A DNA stretch of 64,000 nucleotides. Origin: an uncultured Alphaproteobacteria bacterium. GTDB lineage: Bacteria > Pseudomonadota > Alphaproteobacteria > HIMB59 > GCA-002718135. The DNA is taken from the NCBI GenBank assembly GCA_902600225.1, contig CACKIH010000005.1, positions 5,327 to 69,326 of the forward strand, in the 5' to 3' direction. Numbering within the stretch: position 1 is the first letter of the stretch; every line of letters begins with the position of its first letter. Positions 6,831 to 21,679 of the stretch are shown here, in pieces. Below the pieces are notes generated by a model. That model was not told where the DNA came from. It worked only from the letters and a program-made list of their open reading frames with translations, and made no database searches. The translations under genes and the position numbers were made by a program.

Positions 6831-7321
6831 ACTATAAAATAAAGAATATTAGTAAAGAGAATTTCAAAAATTATGGTGATTTAATTACAACATCTAATAA
6901 AAATTATGAAAGTATTAATAAAGATACAACCGATAGTTTTTTTGATTTAGCAAATATTCAAATAATTGGTGATGACAAAAGATCTAGATTAAATATTTTT
7001 CAGGCAAAGAAAAGAAACTTTCCATTAAAAATTAACATGTTAGAAAACCACCCCTTTAGTTCTCAAGTATTTCTTCCGTTTAATGCTACAGGCTTTTTAG
7101 TTTTAGTTGCTCCAATAGGTAACAAACCTAAAATTGATTTAATTGAAATATTCAAAGTAAGCGGTGGTGATGGTATAAATTTTAATCCCAAAGTATGGCA
7201 TTTTCCTCTAATATCTCTTGAGAATGAAAAATATATTACCATTGATAAAAAAGATGCGGATAATAATATTGAGATTTATAATTTTGAACAATCAGAAATA
7301 TTTGAATTAAATTATGAGTGA
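6827..7321 (+). CDS. allA: ureidoglycolate lyase
   Basis: 164 aa with AllA-like features (NHPFSSQVFLP, WHFPL). GTG start in a GTGA overlap with the alc stop. Confidence 0.8.
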   Translation: MNYKIKNISKENFKNYGDLITTSNKNYESINKDTTDSFFDLANIQIIGDDKRSRLNIFQAKKRNFPLKINMLENHPFSSQVFLPFNATGFLVLVAPIGNKPKIDLIEIFKVSGGDGINFNPKVWHFPLISLENEKYITIDKKDADNNIEIYNFEQSEIFELNYE

Positions 7322-8819
7322 TACAATATTAAATATAGAAAATATTACAAAATCTTTTCCAAGAGTAATTGCAAATAAAAAGGTTACTTTTGATATTAAA
7401 AAAAATGCAGTTCATGCAATTTTAGGAGAAAATGGAGCAGGGAAATCTACGTTGGTAAAAATTCTATATGGTCTCTTAGAGCCAGATGAAGGAAATATTA
7501 AATTAAATAATAAGGATTTTAAAGTTAATTCCCCAGCAGAAGCAAGGAAACAAGGAATAGGAATGGTATTTCAGCATTTTTCTTTATTTGATTCTTTATC
7601 AGTAAAAGAAAATTTAATTTTAGGAATTGATGAAAAGATGTCTTATTCAGATTTAGAAAATAAGCTAGAAAATATAAGCTCAAGATATAATCTTCCCTTA
7701 GATTTAGATGCTCCAATTACGGCTTTATCAGCTGGAGAAAAGCAGCGTGTAGAAATTGTAAGAATTTTATTACAAGACCCTCAGATACTTATTATGGATG
7801 AGCCAACTTCAGTCTTAACACCACAAGAAGTTGAAAGTTTATTTGTAACATTAAATGCACTCGTCAAAGAAGGTCGTACAATATTATATATCACTCATAA
7901 ACTCGAAGAAGTAATATCAATATGTGATACAGTTACTATAATGAGAAGTGGTGAAATTATAGACACTTCAAGTACTGCAAATCAAACTGCAAAAACACTT
8001 GCAACAAAAATGCTAGGACAAAAATTAGATGACTTAAAAACTAATTATGGACATATAAAAGACGAAGTTAACTTTGAAGTAAAAAATATTTCATGTAACT
8101 TTAATGATCCATTTTTAACAGATCTTAAAAATATTTCTTTTCAAGTTAGAGTGGGTGAAATTTATGGCATTGCTGGAGTTGCTGGTAATGGACAATCAGA
8201 ATTAATGGATATTTTAACAGGAGAAAATATAAATATTAAATCTGGATCAATTACTTTTGATAATAAAAAAATTGAAAAGTATGGGCCACAAAAAAGAAGA
8301 GATTTATCTATTTCTTTTGTTCCGGAGAATAGATTGGGTCATAGTGCGGTACCTGAGTTAAGTTTGTCTGAAAATATTCTTTTGAGTCAATTTCCAAAAA
8401 ATAATTTTATTAGAAATGGCATAATATTGAAAAATAACGTTGATGATTTTGCGAATAATGTAATTAATGAATTTAAAGTTATTACTCCTGGTAATGATGC
8501 TAAAGCATCAAGCTTGTCCGGAGGAAATTTACAAAAATATGTCATCGGTAGAGAAATATCATCTAAGCCAAAAATATTAATTATTTCACATCCTACTTGG
8601 GGGATAGATGCTGGTGCTGAGCATTCTATAAGAGAGTCTTTGATAGAATTATCTCAAAATGGAACGTCTATAATCGTTATTTCTCAAGATTTAGATGAAT
8701 TGATTGAAATTACTCATAAAATATCTGTTATTTATGATGGTAATTTATCCAAACCTTTTAAAACTAGTGAAATAGAAATAGAAAAATTAGGATTATTGAT
8801 GGGTGGAAAAAATGAATAG
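7314..8819 (+). CDS. ABC transporter ATP-binding protein with two NBDs (nucleoside/purine-type, BMP-family system)
   Basis: 501 aa. Walker A GENGAGKST, signature LSAGEKQR, second NBD GVAGNGQSE / LSGGNLQK. Overlaps allA by 8 nt. Confidence 0.9.
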   Translation: MSDTILNIENITKSFPRVIANKKVTFDIKKNAVHAILGENGAGKSTLVKILYGLLEPDEGNIKLNNKDFKVNSPAEARKQGIGMVFQHFSLFDSLSVKENLILGIDEKMSYSDLENKLENISSRYNLPLDLDAPITALSAGEKQRVEIVRILLQDPQILIMDEPTSVLTPQEVESLFVTLNALVKEGRTILYITHKLEEVISICDTVTIMRSGEIIDTSSTANQTAKTLATKMLGQKLDDLKTNYGHIKDEVNFEVKNISCNFNDPFLTDLKNISFQVRVGEIYGIAGVAGNGQSELMDILTGENINIKSGSITFDNKKIEKYGPQKRRDLSISFVPENRLGHSAVPELSLSENILLSQFPKNNFIRNGIILKNNVDDFANNVINEFKVITPGNDAKASSLSGGNLQKYVIGREISSKPKILIISHPTWGIDAGAEHSIRESLIELSQNGTSIIVISQDLDELIEITHKISVIYDGNLSKPFKTSEIEIEKLGLLMGGKNE

Positions 8820-9885
8820 TTTATTTCCATCTATAGTTTCTCGCTCACAGAGTTCGGGTTTAATGAATTTTTTTGTTCCTATAATATCAATAGTTTTAAC
8901 TTTAATTACAGGTTCAATTATTTTTGTTCTTCTTGGTTTTGATCCAATTTATGCATTGTATACATTTTTTATTTCACCTATTTCTTCAACCTACGGTATT
9001 TCTGAATTGTTTGTAAAAGCAACTCCTTTAGCCTTAATTGCAATTGGTCTCTCATATTGTTTTAAGAATAATATTTATAATATTGGAGCTGAAGGACAAC
9101 TTACCATGGGTGCAATTTTTGGAGGAGGTATTGGAATATTTTTTCATGATACAAATGCTTTCTGGTTGTTGCCATTAATGATTTTTGCAGGAGCAATTGG
9201 AGGCGCATTGTGGGGTTTGATACCTGCTATTTTAAAAACAAAATTTAATACAAATGAAATTTTAACAAGTTTAATGTTAGTTTATGTTGCTTTATTTATT
9301 TTAGATTATTTAGTAGTGGGACCTTGGAAAGATCCATTTGGTTATAGTTTTCCTAAATCAAGACCATTTAGTGAATCTGGAAGAATGCCTTTATTATTTG
9401 ATGGTTTGAGGGTGCACTTTGGTCTAATTATAACGCTATTTTTAATTTTTGTATCTTGGTTTATATTTTCAAAAACTATTTTTGGCTTTCAATTAAAAGT
9501 ATCCGGTTACAGCCCCAAAGCTGCTAGATATGCTGGTTTTAATCAAACAACTTTAGTTTTTTTTGCTTTTGCAATTTGTGGCGCTTTTGCAGGTATTGCA
9601 GGTTTAGCTGAAGTATCTGGTCCAATTGGATTATTATATAGAGATATTTCTCCAAATTATGGATTTACTGCAATAATTGTTGCTTTTTTAGGTAGACTGC
9701 ACCCAATTGGTATTATTTTTGCTTCTTTAGTTATCGCTCTTACTTATCTTGGTGCTGAAGATGCACAATTGTTTTTACAAATACCTTCAGCGGTAGGTTT
9801 TATATTTCAGGGTTTGGTTTTATTTTATTTATTAGGTGCGGAATTACTAATTAACTATAAATTAACTTACAAAAAATTATTATGA
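8803..9885 (+). CDS. ABC transporter permease (BMP-family system)
   Basis: 360 aa polytopic membrane protein. Overlaps the ATPase gene by 17 nt. Confidence 0.85.
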   Translation: MEKMNSLFPSIVSRSQSSGLMNFFVPIISIVLTLITGSIIFVLLGFDPIYALYTFFISPISSTYGISELFVKATPLALIAIGLSYCFKNNIYNIGAEGQLTMGAIFGGGIGIFFHDTNAFWLLPLMIFAGAIGGALWGLIPAILKTKFNTNEILTSLMLVYVALFILDYLVVGPWKDPFGYSFPKSRPFSESGRMPLLFDGLRVHFGLIITLFLIFVSWFIFSKTIFGFQLKVSGYSPKAARYAGFNQTTLVFFAFAICGAFAGIAGLAEVSGPIGLLYRDISPNYGFTAIIVAFLGRLHPIGIIFASLVIALTYLGAEDAQLFLQIPSAVGFIFQGLVLFYLLGAELLINYKLTYKKLL

Positions 9886-10751
9886 ATTTAGATTTAATAT
9901 TTGGAATATTACAAATTGTTTTAATTGCAACAACACCTCTAGTTTTTGCTGGTATAGGTGAGTTAGTTACAGAAAAATCTGGAGTATTAAATTTAGGTGT
10001 AGAAGGAATGATGTTGGTAGGAGCAGTGTCAGCTTTTATTATCTTAGTAATTACCGGAAGTTATTTTTTAGCTTTTTTTGTATCTATATTATCTGGAATT
10101 ATCATGTCTGGTTTATTTGCTTTTTTAGTTCTATTTTTAATGTCAAATCAAATTGCGACAGGATTAGCATTAACTATTTTTGGAATAGGGCTGAGTTCTA
10201 TGCTTGGCAAACAATATATTGGAACACCAATTGATGGTCTGTCACCATGGTTTTTTGTTATATTTTCTTTCTTAATTGTTTTTTTGGTTAGTTATTTTTT
10301 TTACAAAACTAAAGCCGGTTTGATTTTAAGAGCAGTAGGGGAATCTCATAATTCTGCTCATGCATTAGGATATAGCGTTATTAAAATTAGATTTTTATCA
10401 ATTATATTTGGAGGTTCTATGTGTGCTCTTGCAGGATCATATATTTCAATTTGTTATGCTCCAATGTGGCAAGAGGGTATGACAGCTGGACGAGGATGGA
10501 TAGCATTAGCTTTAGTTGTATTTGCAACTTGGAAACCAGAAAGAGTACTTATTGGAGCTTATATATTTGGAGGTGTAACTATTCTTCAAATGAATCTTCA
10601 GGCTTTAGGTTTAAGATTTCCTGGTCAATTTTTCAGCATGGCGCCATATGTTGCAACTATTATAGTTTTAGTATTAATTTCTAGTAATAAATTAAGAATA
10701 AAACTCAGTGCACCAGCTTCATTAACTATTCCTTTTTATAAAGGCAGATAA
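9882..10751 (+). CDS. ABC transporter permease (BMP-family system)
   Basis: 289 aa polytopic membrane protein. ATGA overlap with the preceding permease gene. Confidence 0.85.
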   Translation: MNLDLIFGILQIVLIATTPLVFAGIGELVTEKSGVLNLGVEGMMLVGAVSAFIILVITGSYFLAFFVSILSGIIMSGLFAFLVLFLMSNQIATGLALTIFGIGLSSMLGKQYIGTPIDGLSPWFFVIFSFLIVFLVSYFFYKTKAGLILRAVGESHNSAHALGYSVIKIRFLSIIFGGSMCALAGSYISICYAPMWQEGMTAGRGWIALALVVFATWKPERVLIGAYIFGGVTILQMNLQALGLRFPGQFFSMAPYVATIIVLVLISSNKLRIKLSAPASLTIPFYKGR

Positions 10752-10857
10752 ATATCCACTTCTTTTTTTCTATAATCATATAGATTTATTGATCAAACCT
10801 ATTTGTATATATTAAGTATATACTTGAGTAATCGTTATATTAGCAGGTGAGGTTAAA

Positions 10858-11925
10858 ATGATTAGAATAATAACTTTTTTATCTACTTTTTTGGTAATTG
10901 CATTTGGTTCAGCATATGCAGAGCCTAAAAAAGTTGGATTTATATACATAGGTCCCCCAGGCGATCATGGTTGGACATATATGCATGATGTAGGTAGAAA
11001 ATATATGGAGAGCCAACTTGGTGACTCTATTACTACTACTTATCTTGAAAATATTCCTGAAAACGCAGATGCAGTGAGAGCAATCCGAAAACTAGCAGAC
11101 TCAGGGCATGATTTAATATTTACAACGTCTTTCAACTATATGGATCAGACACATGAAGTAGCTAAGGATTTTCCTGATATAAAATTTGAACATGCTACTG
11201 GGTATATCCAAGCAGATAACGTTGCTACGTATTCAGCTAGATTTTACGAAGGTAGAATGATTGAAGGGCATATTGCCGGTCATATGACTGAAACTAATAC
11301 TATTGGTTATATAGCTTCATTCCCTATTCCTGAAGTTGTAAGAGGAATTAATGCATTTTATTTAGCGGCTTCAAAAGTAAATCCAGATATCAAAATGAAA
11401 ATTATTTGGGTATTTACTTGGTACGACCCAGGTAAAGAAGCTGATGCAGCTAATACATTAATTAACCAAGGAGCTGACATAATTGTTCAGCATACTGATA
11501 CATATGCTCCTTGCCAAGCTGCTCAAAAAGCGGGTGTTTATGCATTTGGTCAAGCTTCAAACCAAGAAGAATTTTGTCCTGATGCACATTTAACTTCAAT
11601 TGAAGATATTTGGGGCCCTTACTATGCTGAAAGAGCAAAAGCTGTTGTGGACGGGACTTGGTCTTCTGGTGATACTTGGGATGGTATGGATAAAGGTATG
11701 GTTGTAATGTCACCATATAATACTAAACTTATGCCAGCAAGTTTAATTCAAGAAGCAGTAAATATGGAAGTTGGAATTAAAGATGGAACTATCCATCCTT
11801 TCACGGGTCCAATTTACAATCAAGCTGGTGAGCTTGTGGTTCCTGAAGGTGAAGTAGCGCCTGATGGAATGTTACTTGGAATGAACTTTTATGTTCAAGG
11901 TATTGACGGCGAAGTACCACAATAA
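10858..11925 (+). CDS. BMP-family (Med/PnrA-like) ABC substrate-binding protein, probable purine or nucleoside binder
   Basis: 355 aa with a signal peptide (MIRIITFLSTFLVIAFGSAYA). Noticeably less AT-biased codon usage than its neighbours. Strong SD (AGGTGAGG) 6 nt upstream, and a hairpin follows the gene. Confidence 0.85.
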   Translation: MIRIITFLSTFLVIAFGSAYAEPKKVGFIYIGPPGDHGWTYMHDVGRKYMESQLGDSITTTYLENIPENADAVRAIRKLADSGHDLIFTTSFNYMDQTHEVAKDFPDIKFEHATGYIQADNVATYSARFYEGRMIEGHIAGHMTETNTIGYIASFPIPEVVRGINAFYLAASKVNPDIKMKIIWVFTWYDPGKEADAANTLINQGADIIVQHTDTYAPCQAAQKAGVYAFGQASNQEEFCPDAHLTSIEDIWGPYYAERAKAVVDGTWSSGDTWDGMDKGMVVMSPYNTKLMPASLIQEAVNMEVGIKDGTIHPFTGPIYNQAGELVVPEGEVAPDGMLLGMNFYVQGIDGEVPQ

Positions 11926-11941
11926 TTAAAATTCTTATAAC

Positions 11942-11972
11942 CCTCTCTCTTTTAAAGGGAGAGGTTTAATTC
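11942..11972 (+). terminator. rho-independent terminator-like hairpin after the binding-protein gene
   Basis: CCTCTCTC (11942-11949) pairs with GGGAGAGG (11957-11964). That is 8 bp including one G-U, with a 7 nt loop TTTTAAA, followed by TTTAATTCTT. It is one of the very few GC-containing hairpins I saw in the window. Confidence 0.5.
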
Positions 11973-11992
11973 TTAATTTCAAAGGAAGATTT

Positions 11993-12496
11993 ATGTCTGA
12001 TTTACACATTAGTTGGGACGAATATAGAAGTAAAACAGAAGATTTAGCAAAACAAATTCATAAGGATGGATGGCAATTTAATCAGGTTGTATGCATTGCA
12101 AAAGGAGGTATGAGAGTAGGGGATGTAATGGCAAGAATATTCGATGTTCCTTTAGCAATTCTTTCTGTTGAATCATATAAAGGTGAGGGAGTAAAAAATA
12201 AAAGAGGTGCAATCACATTTTCTAGAGATTTAGCAAAAACAAGCCCTAACATTGGATCAAAAGTTTTAATAGTAGATGATTTAGCAGACTCAGGAATTAC
12301 TCTTAAAAAAAGTATTGATTGGTTAAATCATACTTATGGTTTTTATATAGATGAACCAATAAGAACTGGAGTTTTGTTTTATAAGTCAGTATCTTCGTTT
12401 AAACCAAATTATTATGTTGATTATTTAGAAGATTCTCCTTGGATACATATGCCTTATGAGGTTTATGAAACTATGAAACCAGAAGAACTTGGTTAA
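11993..12496 (+). CDS. type I phosphoribosyltransferase, xanthine-guanine PRTase-like
   Basis: 167 aa. PRPP-binding loop VLIVDDLADSGITL, and overall layout like the small Gpt family. Lies at the end of the purine cluster. Confidence 0.6.
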   Translation: MSDLHISWDEYRSKTEDLAKQIHKDGWQFNQVVCIAKGGMRVGDVMARIFDVPLAILSVESYKGEGVKNKRGAITFSRDLAKTSPNIGSKVLIVDDLADSGITLKKSIDWLNHTYGFYIDEPIRTGVLFYKSVSSFKPNYYVDYLEDSPWIHMPYEVYETMKPEELG

Positions 12497-13353: not shown

Positions 13354-13682
13354 TATCTTCTTATATTTCTATCTATTAATGCAGCCCATGCATCTATTCC
13401 TCCAAGTACATTAACACAATGATTATAACCTTGTGCTTTAAGCCATTTACATACAGCTTGGCTTCTTGTTCCGGTATGACACATTACAAAAATATTTTTT
13501 TTCTTATCTAATTCGGTGTATCTTTTAGCAATCTCTGAAAGTTTCATGTGTATTGTGCCTTTAATATGGGCATGATCTCTCTCAGTATCTTCTCTTACAT
13601 CTATAATTTGAATTTTTTTGTCATCTTGCTTTAGCTCATTTAATTGATGAACTGTAATTTCACTGCTACTGTAAAGATCCAT
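13350..13682 (-). CDS. single-domain rhodanese (sulfurtransferase)
   Basis: 110 aa with an intact active-site loop CHTGTRS. Confidence 0.85.
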   Translation of the reverse strand: MDLYSSSEITVHQLNELKQDDKKIQIIDVREDTERDHAHIKGTIHMKLSEIAKRYTELDKKKNIFVMCHTGTRSQAVCKWLKAQGYNHCVNVLGGIDAWAALIDRNIRRY

Positions 13683-13791
13683 TAGATTATCTTATTATAA
13701 ATACCATTAGATTTCTACTATTTTAAATAAAATTAATTTTGAAAATTAAATTTGTTATTTCTAAGTTTTTAATGTAAGAGCGCATATCATT

Positions 13792-14091
13792 ATGACGAAG
13801 AAAATAACTTTTTCAGCTTTTGGTAGAGATTCATATTATCACAGAGATTGGTTCAAAAAAAATGGTTTCAAATTCGATAGAAGTGCTAGAAAATGGACTG
13901 TAGAAAATTTACCAATAGATAATGCAGAAGAATTTGCCAGTTATTGTAGGAAATACGGTTTAACATTTGAAAGATCTGATAGAATGATTACAGAATTTGA
14001 TTACGCAGATTATCTCTGGGATGGAAGAAGAGATGAATTTATGAAACCTTCTGAAAATATTGAAATTCCACAACCAAAAAATAAAATCTAA
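13792..14091 (+). CDS. hypothetical soluble protein (99 aa)
   Basis: Charged, aromatic-rich ORF with no family recognised. The segment WFKKNGFKFDRSARKWTV vaguely recalls small K-x-G-x-x-W/F-D...W-x-V modules. Preceded by a 109 nt spacer. Confidence 0.5.
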   Translation: MTKKITFSAFGRDSYYHRDWFKKNGFKFDRSARKWTVENLPIDNAEEFASYCRKYGLTFERSDRMITEFDYADYLWDGRRDEFMKPSENIEIPQPKNKI

Positions 14092-14094
14092 TTT

Positions 14095-15012
14095 TTGTTT
14101 AATAAATTATTATCAAATAATTTAATACTTCTTATAATTTTAGCTGCAATTTGGGGATCTTCTTTTTTTGTTATTAAAATTTGTTTGTCTAGTTTTACAC
14201 CTACAAGTATTGCTTCCTTAAGATTAATTATAGCGTCAATTTTCTTAATTATTTTATATTATTCATATAACAATCATCCTAAATTAAATCTCGATTTAGT
14301 TTTAATTCTTTCTTTTATTGGCATTACTGGAAATTTTTTACCATTCTATCTGATTAGTTGGGCTGAACAATACCTTCCTTCTTCTACTGCAGGTTTATTA
14401 ATGTCGGTTGGTCCCTTAATAACATTACTAATGTCTCATATTTTAACTTCAGACGATAAGTTTACTTGGATTAAATTTTTATCAATTATTATAGGTTTTG
14501 TAGGTATTATTTTTATTTTAGATATAAGTAAATTTAATTTTCAAGATGAAAACTATATTAGTACTTTAGCAAAAATTTTTGTGATTATAGCTGCATTTGG
14601 CTATATGATTTCAAATATTGCTGCTTATAATAAATTGAAGAAATTAAGCCCTATTTCGATTACTACTTTTGCTACATTATTTGGAGCGATAATATCATTA
14701 CCTTTTTTATTCTATGATTTTATTAATTATGAGAATAATATTAATATGATATCTTTAATTTCTATTATTTATTTAGGTGTTTTTCCAACAGCTATTGCAT
14801 TTCATATGCGCTATCATATAGTTAAACAATCTGGTCCGGTTTTCTTGTCTTATGTTGCCTATTTAATTCCTGTTTTTGCATTAATATGGGGATTCATATT
14901 TCTTTCTGAAAAAATAGTATTTAGTTCTGTAGTTGGAATTATTCTAGTTTTTATTGGTCTGTTTGTTGGGCAAAAAAGATCAATGAGTAAAATATCCGTA
15001 AAAAACATATAA
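14095..15012 (+). CDS. EamA/DMT-family transporter
   Basis: 305 aa with about 10 TM segments in two EamA-like halves. TTG start 3 nt after the previous stop. Confidence 0.85.
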   Translation: MFNKLLSNNLILLIILAAIWGSSFFVIKICLSSFTPTSIASLRLIIASIFLIILYYSYNNHPKLNLDLVLILSFIGITGNFLPFYLISWAEQYLPSSTAGLLMSVGPLITLLMSHILTSDDKFTWIKFLSIIIGFVGIIFILDISKFNFQDENYISTLAKIFVIIAAFGYMISNIAAYNKLKKLSPISITTFATLFGAIISLPFLFYDFINYENNINMISLISIIYLGVFPTAIAFHMRYHIVKQSGPVFLSYVAYLIPVFALIWGFIFLSEKIVFSSVVGIILVFIGLFVGQKRSMSKISVKNI

Positions 15013-15110
15013 TACTAATAAAACAGCAATAAAAATAGACACATTTTTGAAGTTAAAGTATTTCATTTATGGTTGAAATTTAATTTTTTATAGTCCAATA
15101 TACTTTTATT

Positions 15111-16475
15111 ATGAGCGACTCAATTAAATACTTACTTGAAGAAAATAAAGCACCAAAGTTTTGGTATAATATTAATGCAGACTTACCAAGTCCACCACCA
15201 CCACCATTACACCCTGGAACTAAACAACCAGCAGGTCCTGATGACTTTGCTCCTTTATTTCCAATGAGTTTAATTATGCAAGAAGTATCTACTGAAAGAG
15301 AAATAGAAATTCCTGAACCAGTAAGAGAAGTATACAAACAATGGAGACCTTCTCCTTTATTTAGAGCAAGAAGATTAGAAAAGTTTTTAGATACACCAGC
15401 TAAAATTTATTATAAATATGAAGGTGTTAGTCCTACCGGAAGTCACAAACCAAATACTGCAGTCCCACAAGCATTTTTTAATAAGGAAGAAGGAATAAGT
15501 AAAATTTTTACTGAAACGGGCGCAGGTCAGTGGGGAAGTTCACTAGCTTTTGCAGGCCAAATCTTTGGTATAGATATAGAAGTTTTCATGGTTAAGGTTA
15601 GTTTTGATCATAAACCTTACAGAAAATTAATGATGCAATCATTCGGTGCTAACTGTCACGCTAGTCCATCTAATTTAACTGACTTCGGTAACAAGTTATT
15701 ATCAGAAAATCCTGATAACCCTGGTAGTTTGGGAATAGCTATATCAGAAGCAATAGAAGCAACTGTTAAAAGTGGAGGTAAAGCAAAATACTCACTTGGA
15801 AGTGTTTTAGGCCACGTTCTAATGCATCAAACTATAAATGGTAATGAAGCTATTATGCAAATGGAGATGGCTGGAGATTATCCTGATATTATTGTTGGCT
15901 GTACAGGTGGTGGGAGTAATCTTTCTGGATTAATGTTCCCATTCTTAGGACAACAATTAAGAGGTGGTCAGAAAATTGATATAATTGGTTGTGAGCCTGC
16001 ATCATGTCCATCATTTACGAAAGGTAAGTATGCATATGATCATGGTGATATGGCAAAAATGACTCCATTAATTAAAATGCATACTCTTGGATCTGATTTC
16101 TTACCGCCGGCTAATCACTCTGGTGGATTAAGATACCATGGCATGTCTTATCATTTAAGCCACTTATATGAGTTAGGTCTGATGAGAGCAAAGGCTTACG
16201 GTCAAAAAGATTGTTTTGAAGCTGGTTTAACTTTTGCAAAACAAGAAGGAATTATTCCTGCTCCAGAAGGAAACCATGCAATCAAAGGTGCTATTGATGC
16301 GGCTTTAGAATGTAAAGAAAAAGGTGAGTCAAAAACTATTCTCTTTAATTTATGTGGCCATGGATATTTTGATATGTCAGCTTATGATGATTATCTAAAT
16401 GGATCAATGGCTGATGATGTTATTGATGATGATGGAATAGGTAAATCTATTTCTCAAATACCAGAAGTAGCGTAA
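15111..16475 (+). CDS. trpB2: TrpB2-type tryptophan synthase beta-like PLP enzyme
   Basis: 454 aa with the long N-terminal extension typical of TrpB2 (WYNINADLPSPPPPPLHPG), the PLP lysine region (GSHKPNTA) and GCTGGGSN. Confidence 0.85.
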   Translation: MSDSIKYLLEENKAPKFWYNINADLPSPPPPPLHPGTKQPAGPDDFAPLFPMSLIMQEVSTEREIEIPEPVREVYKQWRPSPLFRARRLEKFLDTPAKIYYKYEGVSPTGSHKPNTAVPQAFFNKEEGISKIFTETGAGQWGSSLAFAGQIFGIDIEVFMVKVSFDHKPYRKLMMQSFGANCHASPSNLTDFGNKLLSENPDNPGSLGIAISEAIEATVKSGGKAKYSLGSVLGHVLMHQTINGNEAIMQMEMAGDYPDIIVGCTGGGSNLSGLMFPFLGQQLRGGQKIDIIGCEPASCPSFTKGKYAYDHGDMAKMTPLIKMHTLGSDFLPPANHSGGLRYHGMSYHLSHLYELGLMRAKAYGQKDCFEAGLTFAKQEGIIPAPEGNHAIKGAIDAALECKEKGESKTILFNLCGHGYFDMSAYDDYLNGSMADDVIDDDGIGKSISQIPEVA

Positions 16476-16521
16476 TTTAAGTTTAAATTTTTTTTTATTT
16501 AATTAAAGGTGTTTCTTTATT

Positions 16522-17736
16522 ATGGTTGAAATTAAACCTTTTAAAGGAACACGTCCTTACAACGAAGATGCAAAAAATTTAATTGCTCCCTCTACTGATC
16601 ATTTAAGTATTGAAAATATAGAAATATTTAAAAAAAATAATTATTGGAATTATTTAAAAATTTTGAATCCTGTTGGGCAATTAAAAGAAGCAGATACTCT
16701 CTTAGAAGCTAAATCACATTTTAATGAAATGAAAGAAAATGACGTAATTAAAAAAGATAAAAAATTATTTTATTACATTTATCAAATTGAATTTAAAGGC
16801 CATACTCAACTAGGTTTTTTATCTCTTTCTAAAATATCAGATTTCGTTGATGAAAAAATTAAAGCACATGAAAAAATTTATGAAACAAGGATGAGAGAAA
16901 GAGCAGAGCAAATGTTAAATATAAAAACACAAATTGGTCCTATTTATGTGGTATATAAAAAAAACAATAAGATAAGAAATTTATTATCCTCTATAATATC
17001 AAATACTCCAAATTATGATTTTGAAAGTTTTGATAAATCTATTCATAAACTTTGGTGTGTCTCTGATGAATCTTTCATTAAAAAACTGTCATCTATTTTT
17101 TTAAATGAGGTAGATAATTTTTATATTGCCGATGGACATCATAGAATGGGTGCAATGAAAATTATTGGTGAATTAAATTATAATAAAAATATTTTACAGG
17201 AAGATTTTATGATAGCGGCGTTTCCAAGTGATGAAGCTAAAATATTTGATTATAATAGAGTTGTTAAAGATTTAAATGGTTTGAGTGAAGAAAATTTTTT
17301 AAACATTCTTTCTGAAAACTTCGAAATAAAAAAAGAAAAAAATCCCTTCAAACCTCAATCTAATAAACAATTTGGAATGTATCATGAAAAAAAGTGGTAT
17401 TCATTACATTTTAAAACTGAATTAAAAACTGATAATTTTGTTGATACGCTAGATATTAATATTTTAAATAATTTTATTTTCAAAAAACATTTAAATATAT
17501 CTGATGTTAATAATGATGAAAGAATAAGATTTATTGCCGGATGTCATGGATTGGAAGCTTTAGAAAAAAAAGTTGATGAAAATAATGACAGTGTGGCATT
17601 TTCTATCTTCCCATCTTCAATAAGTGATGTTATTACAGTCGCAAATAAAAATTTGACTATGCCTCCTAAATCAACATGGTTTGATCCAAAACCTTTAGAT
17701 GGTTTAGTAGTTTATGAGTTTGAAAAAAATGTATGA
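16522..17736 (+). CDS. DUF1015-family protein
   Basis: 404 aa with the YIADGHHRM motif as remembered for DUF1015. Overlaps serC by 4 nt. Confidence 0.8.
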   Translation: MVEIKPFKGTRPYNEDAKNLIAPSTDHLSIENIEIFKKNNYWNYLKILNPVGQLKEADTLLEAKSHFNEMKENDVIKKDKKLFYYIYQIEFKGHTQLGFLSLSKISDFVDEKIKAHEKIYETRMRERAEQMLNIKTQIGPIYVVYKKNNKIRNLLSSIISNTPNYDFESFDKSIHKLWCVSDESFIKKLSSIFLNEVDNFYIADGHHRMGAMKIIGELNYNKNILQEDFMIAAFPSDEAKIFDYNRVVKDLNGLSEENFLNILSENFEIKKEKNPFKPQSNKQFGMYHEKKWYSLHFKTELKTDNFVDTLDINILNNFIFKKHLNISDVNNDERIRFIAGCHGLEALEKKVDENNDSVAFSIFPSSISDVITVANKNLTMPPKSTWFDPKPLDGLVVYEFEKNV

Positions 17737-18896
17737 ATAAACCTAATACTAAACCTAACAATCCAAACTTTTCAAGTGGACCAACCTCAAAAAGACCAGG
17801 CTGGGATATATCTGTTTTGAGTAATGCTTTAACTGGTAGATCTCACAGATCTGTTGAATGTAAAGCAAGATTAAAAGAAGCCATAGATAAATCTAAAGAT
17901 ATTCTTAAATTACCTGATGATTATTTATTAGGTATAATGCCTGGATCAAATACTGGTGCTTTAGAAGCTGCTATGTGGTGCCTATTAGGTAAAACGGGAG
18001 TCGATATTCTTGCATGGGAAAATTTTGGAAAAGATTGGGTAATCGATGCAATCAGCGAATTAAAATTAGATAATTTAAATATTCATGAAGAAGATTATGG
18101 GAAACTACCTGACCTAAGCAAAGTCAATTTTGATAATGACGTTATTTTTACTTGGAATGGAACAACATCTGGTGTCAAAGTTCCAAATGGAGATTGGATA
18201 CCTGATGACAGAAAAGGCCTAACCATTTGTGATGCTACTTCGGCAATCTTTGGTATGCATATAGATTATAATAAATGTGATGTTATAACTTGGTCTTGGC
18301 AAAAAATACTTGGAGGAGAAGCCGCTCACGGAATGATAGCAATTTCTCCACGCGTTGTTGAAAGATTAGAAAGTTTTACACCTAGTTGGCCAGTACCAAA
18401 ATTATTTAGATTAGCTGAAAAGCAAAAATTAATAAAAGGTATTTTTGAAGGAAACACAATTAATACACCGTCAATGATATGCGTTGAAGATATAATAGAT
18501 TCATTAAATTGGGTTTCTTCTCAAGGAGGATTAAATTCATTAATTTCTAAATCCCAGAATTCTTTACAAAAAATTAGAGAATGGATTAATGAGAGAGATT
18601 GGGTCACCTTTTTATCTGAAATTGAAGATGATAATTATATCTCAAACACTGGAATAACTTTTAAAATTATTGAAGATTGGTTTACTAATAAAGATGAAAG
18701 CAGTCAAAGAGCTGTAATGGCTGATATATGTAAATTACTTTCTGAAAATAATGTTGGATTTGATTGCAATGGATATCCCAAAGCACCACCTTCTTTTAGA
18801 ATATGGGCTGGAGGTACGGTTCAAACTTCAGATGTAGAATTAGTTTTACCTTGGATTGATTGGGCTTATTCGGAAATCAAATCTAAACATGCCTAA
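17733..18896 (+). CDS. serC: phosphoserine aminotransferase (long alphaproteobacterial/archaeal type)
   Basis: 387 aa class V aminotransferase-like (NPNFSSGPTSKRPGW..., WSWQKILGGE). Adjacent to serA. Confidence 0.8.
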   Translation: MNKPNTKPNNPNFSSGPTSKRPGWDISVLSNALTGRSHRSVECKARLKEAIDKSKDILKLPDDYLLGIMPGSNTGALEAAMWCLLGKTGVDILAWENFGKDWVIDAISELKLDNLNIHEEDYGKLPDLSKVNFDNDVIFTWNGTTSGVKVPNGDWIPDDRKGLTICDATSAIFGMHIDYNKCDVITWSWQKILGGEAAHGMIAISPRVVERLESFTPSWPVPKLFRLAEKQKLIKGIFEGNTINTPSMICVEDIIDSLNWVSSQGGLNSLISKSQNSLQKIREWINERDWVTFLSEIEDDNYISNTGITFKIIEDWFTNKDESSQRAVMADICKLLSENNVGFDCNGYPKAPPSFRIWAGGTVQTSDVELVLPWIDWAYSEIKSKHA

Positions 18897-19827
18897 AGTA
18901 CTAATATCAGATTCACTAGACAATATTGCATCTGAAATATTAATAAAGAACAACATTTCAGTTGATACAAAAACAAACTTATCTCCTGAAGATTTAAAAA
19001 AAATAATTGATAATTATGATGGCTTAATCATTCGTTCTGCAACTAAAGTGCGAAAAGATATAATTGATTCTCTTTCAAATTTAAAAATTATAGGTAGGGC
19101 AGGAGCAGGAGTAGATAATGTTGATGTGGAAGCTGCTAAAAATAAAAATATTATCGTAATGAATACTCCAGGAGGAAATACAAATGCTACAGCAGAACAC
19201 ACAATTGGTTTAATTTTTGCATTGCAAAGAAAAATTACTGTTGCCAATGAAACAACTCATAAGGGTCTTTGGGAAAAAAAGAAATTAAAAGGAAATGAAA
19301 TTAAAGGCAAGAAAATTGGTATCGTAGGTTTTGGTAATGTAGGTAAAAGAGTTGCAGAAATATCTAATGTATTGGGAATGCACGTTTCAATATTTTCTTC
19401 ATACTTTAAAACAATTAAGAATAGCTACCCTGAATATAATTCTTGTTCTATCGATGAGATTATTAAAGATTCAGATATTATTTCTTTTCACTGCAAACCC
19501 AATAAAGATGGTAATCCGATTATGAATAAAAATCATCTATCGCTAATGAAAAAAAATTGCATAATTATCAATACTGCTAGAGGTAACTTAGTTGATGAAA
19601 ATGATCTTAAAAATGCTCTAGAAAAAAAAGAAATTAAAGGTGCTGCATTAGATGTTTTTAAAAATGAGCCTTTAGAAAAAAGTGGGTTTTATAATTTAGA
19701 TAATATAATTTTAACTCCACATATTGCTGCTTCTACTGATGAAGCACAAATAGTTGTAGCAGAAATGGTTGCTAATCAGTTTGTTGAATTTTTTAATAAT
19801 AATAAAATTATAAATTCAGTTACTTAA
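18889..19827 (+). CDS. serA: D-3-phosphoglycerate dehydrogenase, short form without ACT domain
   Basis: The track ORF starts at 18856 inside serC. ATG at 18889 gives MPKVLISDSL..., 312 aa. D-2-hydroxyacid dehydrogenase motifs are present (GIVGFGNVGKRVA, RGNLVDE, TPHIAAST). Confidence 0.85.
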   Translation: MPKVLISDSLDNIASEILIKNNISVDTKTNLSPEDLKKIIDNYDGLIIRSATKVRKDIIDSLSNLKIIGRAGAGVDNVDVEAAKNKNIIVMNTPGGNTNATAEHTIGLIFALQRKITVANETTHKGLWEKKKLKGNEIKGKKIGIVGFGNVGKRVAEISNVLGMHVSIFSSYFKTIKNSYPEYNSCSIDEIIKDSDIISFHCKPNKDGNPIMNKNHLSLMKKNCIIINTARGNLVDENDLKNALEKKEIKGAALDVFKNEPLEKSGFYNLDNIILTPHIAASTDEAQIVVAEMVANQFVEFFNNNKIINSVT

Positions 19828-21679
19828 TAAAAATTTCAGTTAAATTTTCCAAGTAAGCAGATGGATTTGAGAGAATGTTACCATCTAATATATTAGCTTG
19901 ATCTAAAATTAAATTTGAAGCTTTTTTATGGTCAATTTTTGTTAAATTTTGAGATAAATTTACAATCATCGGATGGTTTGGATTAATTTCAAGTATCTTT
20001 TTTGAAACAGGAGTTTTTTGATTATGCATTTTCATCAGTTTTTCCATATTTATATCCATCCCAGCTTCTTCAGCAACAAGCAGAATTGGGCTTTTGGTTA
20101 ATCTGTTAGATACAATAACATCAGATATTGTCTCTTTAAGCTCTGTTTTAAGTACATTAATTAAATCATTGATTTTACTATCTATTTCCTTTTTATCTTC
20201 ATCTTTCTTATTTGATTTTTCCCCAACTTTTGAAACATCAACCTTACCTTTGGTTATTGATTTAAATTCTAAATCTTTAAATTTATTTACATTTTGTATC
20301 CAAAACTCATCTACTGCATCAACCATAAACAAAACTGGTATTTTTTTATCAGTGAAAACTTCTAATTGAGGAGAGTTTTTAATATGATCCTTATCAGTAT
20401 TAGCAAAGTAATAAATTTCTTTTTGATCTTTAGCCATTAATTTAGTGTACTCTTCAAGAGATATTTTTTTATCATTTAAAGAATTTTCAAACTTTAGTAG
20501 CGGTAGGATTTTTTCATGATGATCATTATGTTCGTATAACCCTTCTTTTAGAACAGGACCAAAATTATTCCAAAATGTCTCAAATTTATCCTTTTCTTTC
20601 TTAGCTAAACTATCAATTTCACTTAGAATTTTATTTGTAATACCTTTTTTTATTTTTGTAATAATAGGATTGTTTTGAAGCATTTCTCTACTTATGTTGA
20701 GTGAAATATCTTGTGAGTCTACTACTCCCGGAATAAAACGTAACCAATTAGGAATTATATCTTCACAATCATCAGTGATAAAAACTTTTTGAACATATAA
20801 TTTTATTTTATTTTTCCTATCAGCATTGAATAAATCCATAGGTTGATTTGTAGGAAAATAAAGTAAAGCCTTATAACTAATAACACCCTCAGCGTTATAG
20901 TGAATAGTTTTTAAGGGATCATCAAAGTTAAATGAAATATTATTATAAAATTGTTTATAGTCTTCCTCTTTTATATCTTTTTTATCTTTTAGCCATAATG
21001 GACTACCTTCATTTATTTTTTCTTCTTTTTCTTTGTCATCAAGATCTTTAAGATAAATTGGAAAAGGAATGTAATTTGAGTATTTTGTTATAATTGATCT
21101 TAAGCGAAATGAGTCTAAAAATTCATCAGCATCCTTCTTTATATTTAATGTTATACAAGTACCTCTTTTATCTTTTTTAGCTTCTTCTATTGTATAATTT
21201 TCCTTTCCATTGGATGACCAAAGATTTGTTTCTTCATTTTCAGCATCTTTAGAAAGCACTTCAACATTATCTGCAACCATATATGAGGAATAAAAACCAA
21301 CGCCAAACTGTCCAATAGCAGAAATATCGTTGTTTTTTTTATTTTTCATTGCTTCAATAAATTTACTAGTTCCTGATCTCGCTATAGTTCCTAAATTATC
21401 AATAAGTTCATTTTTTGACATTCCAATTCCATTATCTTCAATTTCAATAATATTTTTCTTTTTTGAAACTCTGATATTAATTTTTAAATCCTTTTCATCT
21501 TTCAAAAGATTTTTTTTGGATAGTGATTGATATCTTAATTTTTCGCAGGCATCAGCTGAATTAGATATTAGTTCTCTTAGAAATATTTCCCTTTCACTAT
21601 AAAGAGAATTAGCAACAAGATCTAAAAGCTTACTTACTTCAGCTTGAAATGTTAAATTTTCTTTAGTTTTTTCTGACAT
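19820..21679 (-). CDS. htpG: molecular chaperone HtpG (Hsp90)
   Basis: 619 aa with ELISNSADA, GIGMSK and GQFGVGFYS motifs. Convergent 8 nt overlap with serA. Confidence 0.95.
   Translation of the reverse strand: MSEKTKENLTFQAEVSKLLDLVANSLYSEREIFLRELISNSADACEKLRYQSLSKKNLLKDEKDLKINIRVSKKKNIIEIEDNGIGMSKNELIDNLGTIARSGTSKFIEAMKNKKNNDISAIGQFGVGFYSSYMVADNVEVLSKDAENEETNLWSSNGKENYTIEEAKKDKRGTCITLNIKKDADEFLDSFRLRSIITKYSNYIPFPIYLKDLDDKEKEEKINEGSPLWLKDKKDIKEEDYKQFYNNISFNFDDPLKTIHYNAEGVISYKALLYFPTNQPMDLFNADRKNKIKLYVQKVFITDDCEDIIPNWLRFIPGVVDSQDISLNISREMLQNNPIITKIKKGITNKILSEIDSLAKKEKDKFETFWNNFGPVLKEGLYEHNDHHEKILPLLKFENSLNDKKISLEEYTKLMAKDQKEIYYFANTDKDHIKNSPQLEVFTDKKIPVLFMVDAVDEFWIQNVNKFKDLEFKSITKGKVDVSKVGEKSNKKDEDKKEIDSKINDLINVLKTELKETISDVIVSNRLTKSPILLVAEEAGMDINMEKLMKMHNQKTPVSKKILEINPNHPMIVNLSQNLTKIDHKKASNLILDQANILDGNILSNPSAYLENLTEIFIK

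What the first reader, a model, noticed from the sequence alone, without database searches (positions are those of the whole stretch)
15111..19827. trpB2-DUF1015-serC-serA: an O-phosphoserine-centred operon linking an orphan tryptophan-synthase-beta paralogue and a domain of unknown function to the phosphorylated serine pathway
Seen: four co-directional genes. The last three overlap (ATGA at 17733-17736; serA start inside the serC 3' end). trpB2 is 46 nt upstream. No trpA and no serB lie next to them.

Established: SerA and SerC make O-phospho-L-serine from 3-phosphoglycerate. As I recall, biochemical work on TrpB2 enzymes showed they prefer O-phosphoserine over serine as the indole acceptor. 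I also recall DUF1015 sitting beside serA/serC in unrelated phyla (Bacteroidetes).

Inference: the cluster may be an indole-salvage and phosphoserine-utilisation module in which phosphoserine is consumed directly. DUF1015 is then a prime candidate for a missing phosphoserine-pathway function, such as a phosphatase substitute, regulator or channeling partner. If the organism is SAR11, serA/serC are also notable. Cultured members are reported to depend on exogenous glycine/serine. I am unsure which ser genes they lack.
Basis: partly seen in the sequence, partly recalled or inferred. Interest (0 to 1): 0.65.

Follow-up and report, generated by a model that had tools for sequence, protein, structure and literature searches.

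The report
Phosphoserine operon linking TrpB2 to serine kinase
An abundant uncultured ocean bacterium has one four-gene operon holding two enzymes that make phosphoserine, a likely serine kinase (formerly DUF1015) and a phosphoserine-using tryptophan synthase; the DUF1015 role is already published, but its repeated pairing with the tryptophan enzyme looks new.

Summary
Four co-directional genes lie at 15111-19827: TrpB2, DUF1015, a serC_2-type SerC and a short SerA. SerA is 312 aa and starts at ATG 18889, not at TTG 18856. The junctions are a 46-nt gap, an ATGA overlap and an 8-nt overlap.

The DUF1015 idea is right but no longer new. A 2026 preprint names the family SerBK, shows that a Clostridium member rescues an E. 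coli serB mutant, and proposes that it is a serine kinase. My AlphaFold model of the window's divergent member (pLDDT 94) significantly matches only free serine kinases (SerK, SbnI) in the PDB. It also keeps their HE, DGHHR and PKST motifs.

The apparently new element is that TrpB2-DUF1015 is a recurring pair in Alphaproteobacteria. Here it comes with serC-serA. In a marine Rhodospirillaceae lineage it stands alone. In a Magnetospiraceae MAG it follows a canonical serB. TrpB2 also abuts serB in a further lineage. This supports an O-phosphoserine hub in which SerA-SerC and/or the kinase feed the phosphoserine-dependent TrpB2.

There is no biochemistry for any of these proteins. I could not check for serB, trpA or trpB1 genome-wide. 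The organism may be AEGEAN-169/HIMB59-like rather than true SAR11. Interest is moderate.

The parts
15013..15110 (+). Intergenic leader upstream of trpB2; presumed promoter region, not demonstrated
   Evidence: 98 nt, AT-rich. It is conserved in close relatives L006 and L005. No Rfam family matches even at E<=1. Promoter-like hits are at shuffle expectation.
15111..16475 (+). trpB2: TrpB-like PLP enzyme (TrpB2 class), 454 aa; predicted O-phosphoserine-dependent tryptophan synthase
   Evidence: NF009057 scores 701 bits and TIGR01415 607 bits, both above their cut-offs; canonical trpB TIGR00263 scores only 133. PDB TrpB2 chains 6hul_B (458 bits) and 4qys_B (389 bits) far outscore TrpB1 (about 117 bits). 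K113 aligns with E. coli K87, and R341 (GGLRYHG) with E. coli D305.
16476..16521 (+). 46-nt spacer between trpB2 and DUF1015, with an AAAGGTG ribosome-binding site and no terminator-like hairpin
   Evidence: Sequence read. No terminator-like site falls in the gap. Metatranscriptome contigs bridge it in 3 of 4 runs.
16522..17736 (+). DUF1015 / SerBK-family protein, 404 aa; predicted free serine kinase that interconverts L-serine and O-phospho-L-serine
   Evidence: PF06245 scores 226.8 bits. The AlphaFold2 model has pLDDT 94.2 and pTM 0.92. The only significant Foldseek PDB hits are SerK (5x0k, 5x0b and others), 1vk1 and SbnI (5uje, 6nr6, 5ujd), at E 1.5e-8 to 5e-6. Residues E117, D204, G205, H207, R208, K383 and T385 are invariant across 99 family members. 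They line up with SerK's KPHE (E30), VDGHHR and SPKTT motifs.
17733..18896 (+). serC: phosphoserine transaminase of the atypical serC_2 type, 387 aa; its start overlaps the DUF1015 stop (ATGA)
   Evidence: NF002841 scores 587 bits (cut-off 477) and TIGR01365 521 (cut-off 448). Pfam Aminotran_5 scores only 23 bits. Homologues carry no or only faint Pfam hits on record. The best PDB hit is M. tuberculosis PSAT 2fyf at 66 bits.
18889..19827 (+). serA: short 3-phosphoglycerate dehydrogenase, 312 aa, without ACT or ASB regulatory domains; its ATG overlaps the serC stop by 8 nt
   Evidence: The best NCBIfam hit is PGDH TIGR01327 at 320.8 bits. It covers only model positions 1-308 of 525, so it falls below the full-length cut-off of 454. 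The best PDB hits are all PGDHs: 1wwk (307 aa) at 220 bits and human PHGDH at 219, against glyoxylate reductase at 164. The ATG 18889 start was read and matches the gene calls.

Best explanation
The four genes form an operon built around one metabolite, O-phospho-L-serine (OPS).
- SerA and SerC make OPS from 3-phosphoglycerate.
- The DUF1015 protein belongs to the recently named SerBK family. It is a free serine kinase of the SerK/SbnI fold and interconverts L-serine and OPS. That lets the cell either complete serine synthesis without a SerB or charge imported serine to OPS.
- TrpB2 condenses OPS with indole to give tryptophan and phosphate.

The conserved functional core is the TrpB2-SerBK pair. 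This is a kinase that makes an activated serine for a fold-type-II PLP beta-replacement enzyme, the same logic as SbnI feeding SbnA, or Thermococcus SerK feeding an OPS sulfhydrylase.

Shown here: gene identities, overlaps, fold, conserved motifs, and recurrence of the gene pair in other lineages.
Inferred: the substrates of these particular proteins, the direction of flux, and co-transcription of trpB2 with the other three genes.
For: 1. Family assignments are above curated cut-offs for TrpB2 and SerC. PGDHs are the best hits for SerA.
2. Overlapping start and stop codons couple DUF1015, serC and serA.
3. In the published SerBK work, the DUF1015 protein CBO1128 rescues E. coli serB::kan, and BT1151 is needed for growth on L-serine as nitrogen source. 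Foldseek there links the family to SbnI.
4. For the window's own protein, at only 30-37% identity to most of the family, a confident model hits only free serine kinases among 350,542 PDB chains; the next hit has E=0.012. The invariant E117, D204-G-H-H-R208 and K383-S-T385 align collinearly with SerK E30 (the residue mutated in 5x0g and 5x0k), DGHHR and PKTT.
5. TrpB2 keeps the catalytic Lys and has Arg where TrpB1 has Asp305. The OPS-using Sulfolobus TrpB2 structures share the GGLRYHG motif. PMC11917138 states that OPS is the TrpB2 substrate.
6. The pair recurs. TrpB2 sits directly upstream of DUF1015 in a 47-48% GC marine Rhodospirillaceae lineage with no serA or serC within 8 kb (L033, L086-L088, L101). 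It does so again in a Magnetospiraceae MAG, preceded by a canonical serB (L105; TIGR00338 209 bits). The flanking genes differ in all three contexts.
7. TrpB2 also abuts a canonical serB in L106.
8. A canonical SerB next to DUF1015 in L105 argues that DUF1015 there is not just a SerB substitute.
9. All four genes are transcribed in seawater metatranscriptomes, and contigs bridge the trpB2-DUF1015 gap in 3 of 4 runs.
Against: - No enzyme of this operon, and no proteobacterial TrpB2 or any SerBK, has been assayed for these reactions. The SerBK authors themselves note that the kinase reaction run in reverse is thermodynamically unfavourable and that the phosphate donor is unknown.
- The TrpB2-DUF1015 pairing is uncommon overall: 1 of 79 diverse DUF1015 loci and 2 of 8 sampled TrpB2 lineages outside the window's clade. 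All cases are alphaproteobacterial, so inherited synteny is possible.
- On the NJ tree the window's DUF1015 sits on a long branch of uncertain placement.
- The RNA evidence is weak. Logan contigs are unstranded and may include DNA. One contig bridges the convergent serA/htpG ends. Contigs break at the DUF1015/serC junction, and serC word depth is about 10 times that of DUF1015.
- The role of the Arg at the D305 position as the specificity determinant rests on my memory of Busch 2014, which I could not read.
Confidence: 0.55

Rival explanations
1. The operon runs catabolically, as a serine-assimilation route. Imported serine, or serine made from glycine by GlyA, is phosphorylated by DUF1015. 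SerC then converts it to 3-phosphohydroxypyruvate, and SerA working in reverse converts that to 3-phosphoglycerate for gluconeogenesis. TrpB2 merely taps the OPS pool.
For: BT1151 is needed for growth on L-serine as nitrogen source. Makino 2016 proposed exactly this route for SerK and found serK next to PGDH and aminotransferase genes in Desulfurococcales. The SerA here lacks the ACT feedback domain expected of a dedicated biosynthetic enzyme. The kinase direction is the thermodynamically favoured one.
Against: CBO1128 supports serine biosynthesis in E. coli. In the published survey, genomes with DUF1015 close to serA mostly lack SerB, which implies a biosynthetic need. This reading does not explain why TrpB2-DUF1015 persists where serC and serA are not nearby. 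It differs from the best explanation in flux direction rather than in kind.
Confidence: 0.2
2. trpB2 is only a syntenic neighbour. DUF1015-serC-serA is an ordinary SerB-independent serine biosynthesis operon. TrpB2 is separately expressed and does something unrelated to this operon, such as indole salvage with serine, serine or OPS deamination, or another beta-replacement.
For: trpB2 is the only one of the four genes without a start/stop overlap; the gap is 46 nt here and 187 nt in relatives at about 70% identity. The whole 20-kb neighbourhood is collinear within the clade, so conservation there proves little. 78 of 79 diverse DUF1015 loci lack TrpB2, and 5 of 8 TrpB2 lineages have no phosphoserine gene nearby.
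Against: The same adjacency and orientation, with different flanking genes, occurs in two further lineages whose DUF1015 is only about 33% identical to the window's. TrpB2 also abuts serB twice. For a random pair of genes in genomes of a few thousand genes, such recurrence is very unlikely. Published TrpB2 biochemistry gives a direct chemical reason for the link.
Confidence: 0.17
3. The window's DUF1015 is too divergent to be a SerBK orthologue. It has another role, such as a phosphatase, a regulator, or a kinase for a different small molecule.
For: It is only 30-37% identical to the bulk of the family, with the nearest outside representatives at 45% and 39%. No sequence-level match to any characterised protein was found. 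About two thirds of diverse DUF1015 loci have no ser gene nearby.
Against: Its translational coupling to serC-serA is the tightest possible context. All family-invariant residues are retained. The fold hits are exclusively serine kinases.
Confidence: 0.08

Closest known systems
SerBK (DUF1015) with serA and serC in Clostridioides difficile, Clostridium botulinum (CBO1128) and Bacteroides thetaiotaomicron (BT1151); Hofmann 2018 and the GapMind 2026 preprint 10.1101/2024.10.14.618325
   Same: A DUF1015 protein is encoded with a PGDH and a phosphoserine transaminase, with no SerB alongside. The fold resembles SbnI/SerK. SerC and SerA are also the top two neighbour families in my own 79-genome sample.
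   Different: A TrpB2 gene heads the cluster here, and the preprint never mentions TrpB, indole or tryptophan synthase. The order here is DUF1015-serC-serA, whereas BT1151 lies downstream of serA. SerC here is the serC_2 type rather than serC_1. Sequence identity to those clades is only about 30-37%. The window's protein is untested.
Free serine kinases SerK (Thermococcus kodakarensis TK0378; PDB 5x0b and others) and SbnI (Staphylococcus; PDB 5uje, 6nr6)
   Same: The fold matches (Foldseek E 1.5e-8 to 5e-6, TM 0.48-0.60 on the target length). The catalytic Glu, DGHHR and PK(S/T)T motifs are collinear. The pathway logic also matches: the kinase makes OPS for a PLP beta-replacement enzyme, and in Desulfurococcales serK sits near PGDH and aminotransferase genes. 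That SbnI supplies OPS to SbnA is from my own knowledge.
   Different: There is no significant sequence similarity (profile E 0.18 and 1.5). DUF1015 is about 160 residues longer. The phosphate donor is unknown; SerK uses ADP, and GapMind 2026 notes only that known serine kinases are either ATP- or ADP-dependent. The partner enzyme here is TrpB2, not SbnA or a cysteine synthase.
TrpB2 tryptophan synthase beta paralogues (Thermotoga maritima TrpB2o; Sulfolobus solfataricus TrpB2i and TrpB2a, PDB 4qys, 6hte, 6hul)
   Same: The window protein scores above the equivalog cut-offs and has 389-458 bits to the solved TrpB2 chains. It shares the GGLRYHG motif and lies outside any trp operon.
   Different: Known contexts are stand-alone or inside trp operons, as in Geobacter. 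Here the gene sits with phosphoserine-pathway genes. The characterised enzymes come from hyperthermophiles; this one is from a mesophilic marine alphaproteobacterium and is untested.

Membership tests
TrpB2 (TrpB-like PLP enzyme; NF009057 / TIGR01415) | Scores above the curated equivalog cut-offs and well above canonical TrpB1 models | tested here: met
   701 bits against 366, and 607 against 519. TIGR00263 trpB scores 133 against 392. PDB TrpB2 chains score 389-458 bits against about 117 for TrpB1.
TrpB2 (TrpB-like PLP enzyme; NF009057 / TIGR01415) | Catalytic PLP-binding lysine, and Arg in place of TrpB1 Asp305 (I recall this as the phosphoserine-specificity position; not verified in a readable source) | tested here: met
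   K113 aligns with EcK87 and R341 with EcD305. The same GGLRYHG motif is present in 4qys_B and 6hul_B.
TrpB2 (TrpB-like PLP enzyme; NF009057 / TIGR01415) | Prefers O-phospho-L-serine over L-serine as co-substrate with indole | not testable with these tools
   Needs enzyme kinetics. The literature basis is Busch 2014 as cited in PMC11917138.
SerBK / DUF1015 (PF06245) | Pfam PF06245 match above the gathering score over the full domain | tested here: met
   226.8 bits against 25.8, covering profile positions 1-323 of 325.
SerBK / DUF1015 (PF06245) | Encoded next to serA and/or serC | tested here: met
   ATGA overlap with serC, which in turn overlaps serA. The same linkage is seen in 26 of 79 diverse loci.
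SerBK / DUF1015 (PF06245) | [quoted passage not shown] | not tested
Identity to Firmicutes and Bacteroidota family members is about 30-37%.
SerBK / DUF1015 (PF06245) | Genome lacks a canonical SerB | tested here: inconclusive
   There is no SerB in the 64-kb window, but the rest of the genome could not be searched. L105 shows that DUF1015 and a canonical serB can coexist side by side.
SerBK / DUF1015 (PF06245) | Functionally replaces SerB, or phosphorylates serine | not testable with these tools
   Needs complementation or an enzyme assay. This has been shown only for CBO1128.
Free serine kinase SerK/SbnI (ParB/Srx-like fold) | Significant sequence similarity to SerK or SbnI | tested here: not met
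   phmmer finds no PDB hit at E<=1. The family profile gives E=0.18 (1vk1) and 1.5 (5x0b). So the protein works like these kinases but is not a sequence-level member of their family.
Free serine kinase SerK/SbnI (ParB/Srx-like fold) | Shared fold, with the catalytic Glu and the DGHHR and PK(S/T)T nucleotide/phosphate motifs | tested here: met
   The nine top Foldseek hits are all SerK, 1vk1 or SbnI, each at probability 1.00. The motifs are collinear and invariant in DUF1015.
Phosphoserine transaminase, serC_2 type (TIGR01365 / NF002841) | Scores above the equivalog cut-offs | tested here: met
   587 bits against 477, and 521 against 448.
D-3-phosphoglycerate dehydrogenase (SerA) | Scores above the PGDH equivalog cut-off (TIGR01327) | tested here: not met
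   320.8 bits against a cut-off of 454. The match covers only the catalytic half (model positions 1-308 of 525) because the ACT and ASB domains are absent.
D-3-phosphoglycerate dehydrogenase (SerA) | Closest characterised relatives are PGDHs rather than other 2-hydroxyacid dehydrogenases, including short forms without regulatory domains | tested here: met
   The top 13 PDB hits are all PGDHs (1wwk, 307 aa, 220 bits; 2ekl 204). Glyoxylate reductase scores 164. The PGDH model is also the best NCBIfam hit.
Operon (single transcription unit) | One transcript spans all four genes | tested here: inconclusive
   Overlapping codons join the last three genes. Unstranded metatranscriptome contigs bridge trpB2-DUF1015 and serC-serA but break at DUF1015/serC. 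There is no terminator-like site in the gaps.

The most novel reading that the evidence does not exclude
TrpB2 and the DUF1015 serine kinase are a dedicated two-enzyme route: serine + ATP or ADP gives OPS, and OPS + indole gives tryptophan. TrpB2 would then be a physiological sink that explains why a kinase-fold enzyme sits in the serine pathway. In this very abundant AT-rich marine lineage the SerA / SerC(serC_2) / SerBK set would be a complete non-canonical phosphoserine pathway. Standard serA/serB/serC scoring misses it, so some 'serine-pathway-incomplete' calls for streamlined marine alphaproteobacteria would be annotation artefacts.
Probability: 0.35. Interest if true: 0.7.

Novelty: new variant of a known kind. 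Interest (0 to 1): 0.5.

Why it matters
Two open questions become directly testable.

1. The physiological role of TrpB2 and the source of its phosphoserine have been unclear since 2014. A conserved gene pair with a serine kinase offers a concrete answer.
2. The authors who named SerBK could not explain why a kinase-fold enzyme replaces a phosphatase. An OPS-consuming partner encoded next to it, in one case with a canonical SerB alongside, suggests that the kinase direction matters in vivo.

There is also a practical point. The serC here is barely visible to Pfam, and DUF1015 is in no standard pathway definition. Automated reconstructions would therefore score this extremely abundant ocean bacterium as lacking serine synthesis. 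That bears on the much-discussed glycine/serine dependence of streamlined marine bacteria.

All of this remains comparative-genomic inference until the enzymes are assayed.

Tried and rejected
- Promoter and terminator consensus scans gave counts at shuffle expectation in this 27% GC DNA and were uninformative.
- Rfam found no riboswitch, T-box or leader near the cluster, either at gathering threshold over the whole window or at E<=1 over 13600-20000.
- A direct sequence search of DUF1015 against the PDB found nothing. NCBIfam has no model for it.
- I rejected the TTG 18856 start for serA in favour of ATG 18889.
- I rejected the antisense ORF 15080-15337 as a by-product of the coding strand.
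- I tried to read Busch 2014, Tripp 2009 and Carini 2013; none is held. The supplements of two SAR11 papers held nothing on these genes.
- I tried to name the organism through DNA runs, which were all metagenomes, and through cluster-member names, which included no isolates. The taxon stays unresolved between SAR11 and AEGEAN-169/HIMB59.
- I treated conservation within the clade as non-independent evidence, because the whole 20-kb region is collinear.
- Metatranscriptome contig depth (serC about 10 times DUF1015) was not used as an expression measure. It pools strains, and the tool itself warns against that use.
- The apparent frameshifts in DUF1015 on some long-read contigs (L096, L098, L100) come with breaks in many other genes. 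I treated them as assembly errors.

Full report
**Observation.** The window is about 27% GC.
- 15111-16475 is a TrpB-like PLP enzyme of the TrpB2 class. NF009057 scores 701 bits against a cut-off of 366. TIGR01415 scores 607 against 519. Canonical trpB TIGR00263 scores only 133.
- 16522-17736 is a full-length DUF1015 protein (PF06245, 226.8 bits).
- 17733-18896 is a phosphoserine transaminase of the atypical serC_2 type (NF002841 587 against 477; TIGR01365 521 against 448). Pfam barely sees it (23 bits).
- The last gene is a 2-hydroxyacid dehydrogenase. Its best family and structure matches are 3-phosphoglycerate dehydrogenases (TIGR01327 320.8 bits over the catalytic half only; 1wwk 220 bits against glyoxylate reductase 164). 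It lacks ACT and ASB regulatory domains.

The junctions are as described: a 46-nt gap with an AAAGGTG ribosome-binding site, ATGA at 17733-17736, and serA overlapping serC. The one correction is that serA most likely starts at ATG 18889 (ATGCCTAA, an 8-nt overlap, 312 aa), not at the mechanical TTG 18856. Gene callers on related contigs agree. No E. coli-type TrpA, TrpB1 or SerB is encoded anywhere in the 64 kb.

**The organism.** The identical TrpB2 protein is indexed in 1,545 blocks of the collection and occurs on at least 999 contigs, one of them 1.26 Mb long. The four genes are arranged the same way at every place examined; the breaks in some long-read contigs look like assembly errors. 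Every DNA run that holds the stretch is a marine metagenome. NCBI labels the near-identical proteins 'Pelagibacteraceae bacterium'. The nearest named relatives, at about 70% identity, are MarineAlpha5 bins. One paper groups MarineAlpha5 with HIMB59 and notes that several MAGs called Pelagibacteraceae are really HIMB59 relatives.

**DUF1015 is already explained in outline.** Hofmann 2018 proposed the C. difficile DUF1015 protein as the missing phosphoserine phosphatase. The GapMind 2026 preprint reports four things:
- Homologues cluster with serA and serC.
- Genomes with such clusters mostly lack SerB.
- C. botulinum CBO1128 rescues E. coli serB::kan.
- B. thetaiotaomicron BT1151 is needed for growth on L-serine as nitrogen source.

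That preprint also found that the predicted structure resembles the serine kinase SbnI. It named the family SerBK and left its reaction direction and phosphate donor open.

I repeated these tests on the window's own, divergent protein. Outside its lineage the closest cluster representatives are 45% and 39% identical, and most of the family is 30-37%. An AlphaFold2 model built on 99 family members is confident (pLDDT 94.2, pTM 0.92). Against 350,542 PDB chains its only significant matches are free serine kinases: T. kodakarensis SerK in five liganded forms, the P. furiosus homologue 1vk1, and SbnI from two staphylococci (E 1.5e-8 to 5e-6). The next hit has E=0.012.

There is no significant sequence similarity to these kinases. 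Even so, the family profile aligns three collinear motifs with SerK:
- kkHE (window H116-E117, with E117 invariant) aligns with KPHE, which contains E30, the residue mutated in the SerK crystal structures.
- ADGHHR (203-208) aligns with VDGHHR.
- PPKST (381-385) aligns with SPKTT.

In an unbiased clustering of the genes within 2.5 kb of DUF1015 in 79 phylogenetically diverse genomes, the two largest neighbour families were SerC (20 loci) and a short PGDH-like SerA (19 loci). Together they occur in 26 of the 79 loci. The other families were lineage-specific synteny.

**The TrpB2 link.** Conservation of EamA-TrpB2-DUF1015-serC-serA within the window's clade (70-98% identity) says little, because the whole 20-kb region is collinear. 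The informative cases are distant ones.
- Among the 79 diverse DUF1015 loci, one has a TrpB2 directly upstream. It is L033, a 48% GC marine Rhodospirillaceae MAG. Its DUF1015 is only 33% identical to the window's, and its TrpB2 is 63% identical.
- Longer relatives (L086-L088, L101) show DegP-like protease | TrpB2 | DUF1015 | GNAT. No serA or serC lies within 8 kb downstream.
- I sampled TrpB2 neighbourhoods in eight lineages outside the window's clade (L101-L108). DUF1015 was immediately downstream in two (L101 and L105).
- L105, a Magnetospiraceae MAG, reads serB | TrpB2 | DUF1015 with gaps of 94 and 11 nt. That serB is canonical (TIGR00338 209 bits against 144; 40% identical to E. coli SerB).
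- A further lineage (L106) has a canonical serB convergent with TrpB2.
- Five lineages had nothing related nearby.

So TrpB2-DUF1015 recurs with three different sets of flanking genes, and the accompanying phosphoserine gene varies: serC-serA, serB, or none. The GapMind preprint does not mention TrpB, indole or tryptophan synthase. No paper in the searchable library combines TrpB2 with a serine kinase.

**Mechanism proposed.** TrpB2 enzymes are reported to use O-phospho-L-serine as their substrate and to have high affinity for indole (citing Busch 2014 and Hettwer & Sterner 2002). The window's TrpB2 keeps the catalytic lysine (K113 = EcK87). It has Arg341 where TrpB1 has Asp305, within the GGLRYHG motif shared with the solved Sulfolobus TrpB2 structures. 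That this position determines specificity is my recollection, not something I could verify.

The simplest reading is an OPS hub. SerA and SerC supply OPS from 3-phosphoglycerate. The DUF1015 kinase interconverts serine and OPS. TrpB2 consumes OPS with indole. The pair follows the same logic as known systems in which a free serine kinase feeds an OPS-dependent fold-type-II PLP enzyme: SerK with an OPS sulfhydrylase in Thermococcus, and SbnI with SbnA in staphyloferrin B synthesis (my knowledge). A canonical SerB beside DUF1015 in L105 argues that DUF1015 is more than a SerB substitute.

Flux direction cannot be decided from sequence. The choices are serine synthesis, or serine assimilation to 3PG as Makino et al. 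proposed for serK-PGDH-aminotransferase clusters.

**Expression.** Seawater metatranscriptomes hold about 45% of the region's words. Logan contigs from four runs cover all four genes. They bridge the trpB2-DUF1015 gap in three runs and the serC-serA junction in three. This is weak evidence for four reasons: the contigs are unstranded, they may include DNA, one bridges the convergent serA/htpG ends, and contigs break at the DUF1015/serC junction, where word depth jumps about tenfold.

**SAR11 angle.** Published tables score cultured SAR11 genomes and HIMB59 as having serA but no serC, with serB only in HIMB114. A 2026 preprint calls the serA/serB/serC pathway absent or incomplete in 129 of 135 complete Pelagibacter genomes, and only partial in the other six. 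The serC here is nearly invisible to Pfam, and DUF1015 is in no standard pathway definition. A genome like this one would therefore be scored the same way while possibly having a working route. I could not determine whether true Pelagibacter carries the cluster. No named isolate appears among DUF1015 relatives down to 68% identity.

**Verdict.** [quoted passage not shown] What remains, and appears undescribed, is the recurrent TrpB2-SerBK pairing and the four-gene OPS operon in a very abundant marine bacterium. I rate it a new variant of a known kind, of moderate interest, with clear and inexpensive experiments that would settle it.

Noticed in passing
window 4450-12496: A purine/ureide catabolism and nucleoside-uptake block lies upstream of the cluster. 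It holds a polysaccharide-deacetylase-like gene, OHCU decarboxylase, allantoicase, ureidoglycolate lyase, a Bmp-type ABC transporter (ATPase, two permeases, binding protein) and a phosphoribosyltransferase. The Pfam calls come from the collinear loci L093-L100 and the ORFs.
   Followed up: no
window 14095-15012: An EamA-family transporter sits 98 nt upstream of trpB2 on the same strand and is conserved there throughout the clade. It has weak, below-cut-off similarity to the aromatic amino acid exporter YddG and to the O-acetylserine/cysteine exporter EamA. It is not present beside TrpB2-DUF1015 in the other lineages.
   Followed up: partly
window 13792-14091: A 99-aa ORF has no Pfam or NCBIfam match. 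It is conserved in the same position (between rhodanese and EamA) in all related contigs.
   Followed up: no
window 17678-18340 versus 16573-17677: In four metatranscriptomes the contig word depth over the 5' half of serC is about 10 times that over DUF1015, and contigs end at about 17727, just before the ATGA junction. This could reflect an internal promoter or differential stability. It could equally reflect pooling of strains that share serC but differ in DUF1015.
   Followed up: no
L105 4016-7630; L106 4001-6331: A canonical serB lies directly next to TrpB2 in two Rhodospirillales-type lineages. In L105 it is co-directional and followed by DUF1015. In L106 it is convergent and there is no DUF1015.
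   Followed up: partly
window 17733-18896 and homologues in L001-L005, L093-L100: The serC_2-type transaminase has no or only a 'faint' precomputed Pfam hit in nearly all relatives, and just 23 bits (cut-off 21.5) in the window. Pipelines that rely on Pfam, or on strict thresholds, will tend to miss it.
   Followed up: partly
L096, L098, L100 (about 11993-12035, corresponding to window about 17100-17150): Three long-read, pilon-polished reef contigs split DUF1015 at the same place. They also split several other genes (htpG, M20 peptidase, EamA, allantoicase). These look like homopolymer assembly errors rather than pseudogenes.
   Followed up: no
L070, L018, L076, L087, L105: In Alphaproteobacteria, DUF1015 tends to lie near ilvB-ilvN-ilvC and miaA whether or not TrpB2 is present. 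TrpB2 therefore seems to have been added to, or lost from, an older syntenic block.
   Followed up: no
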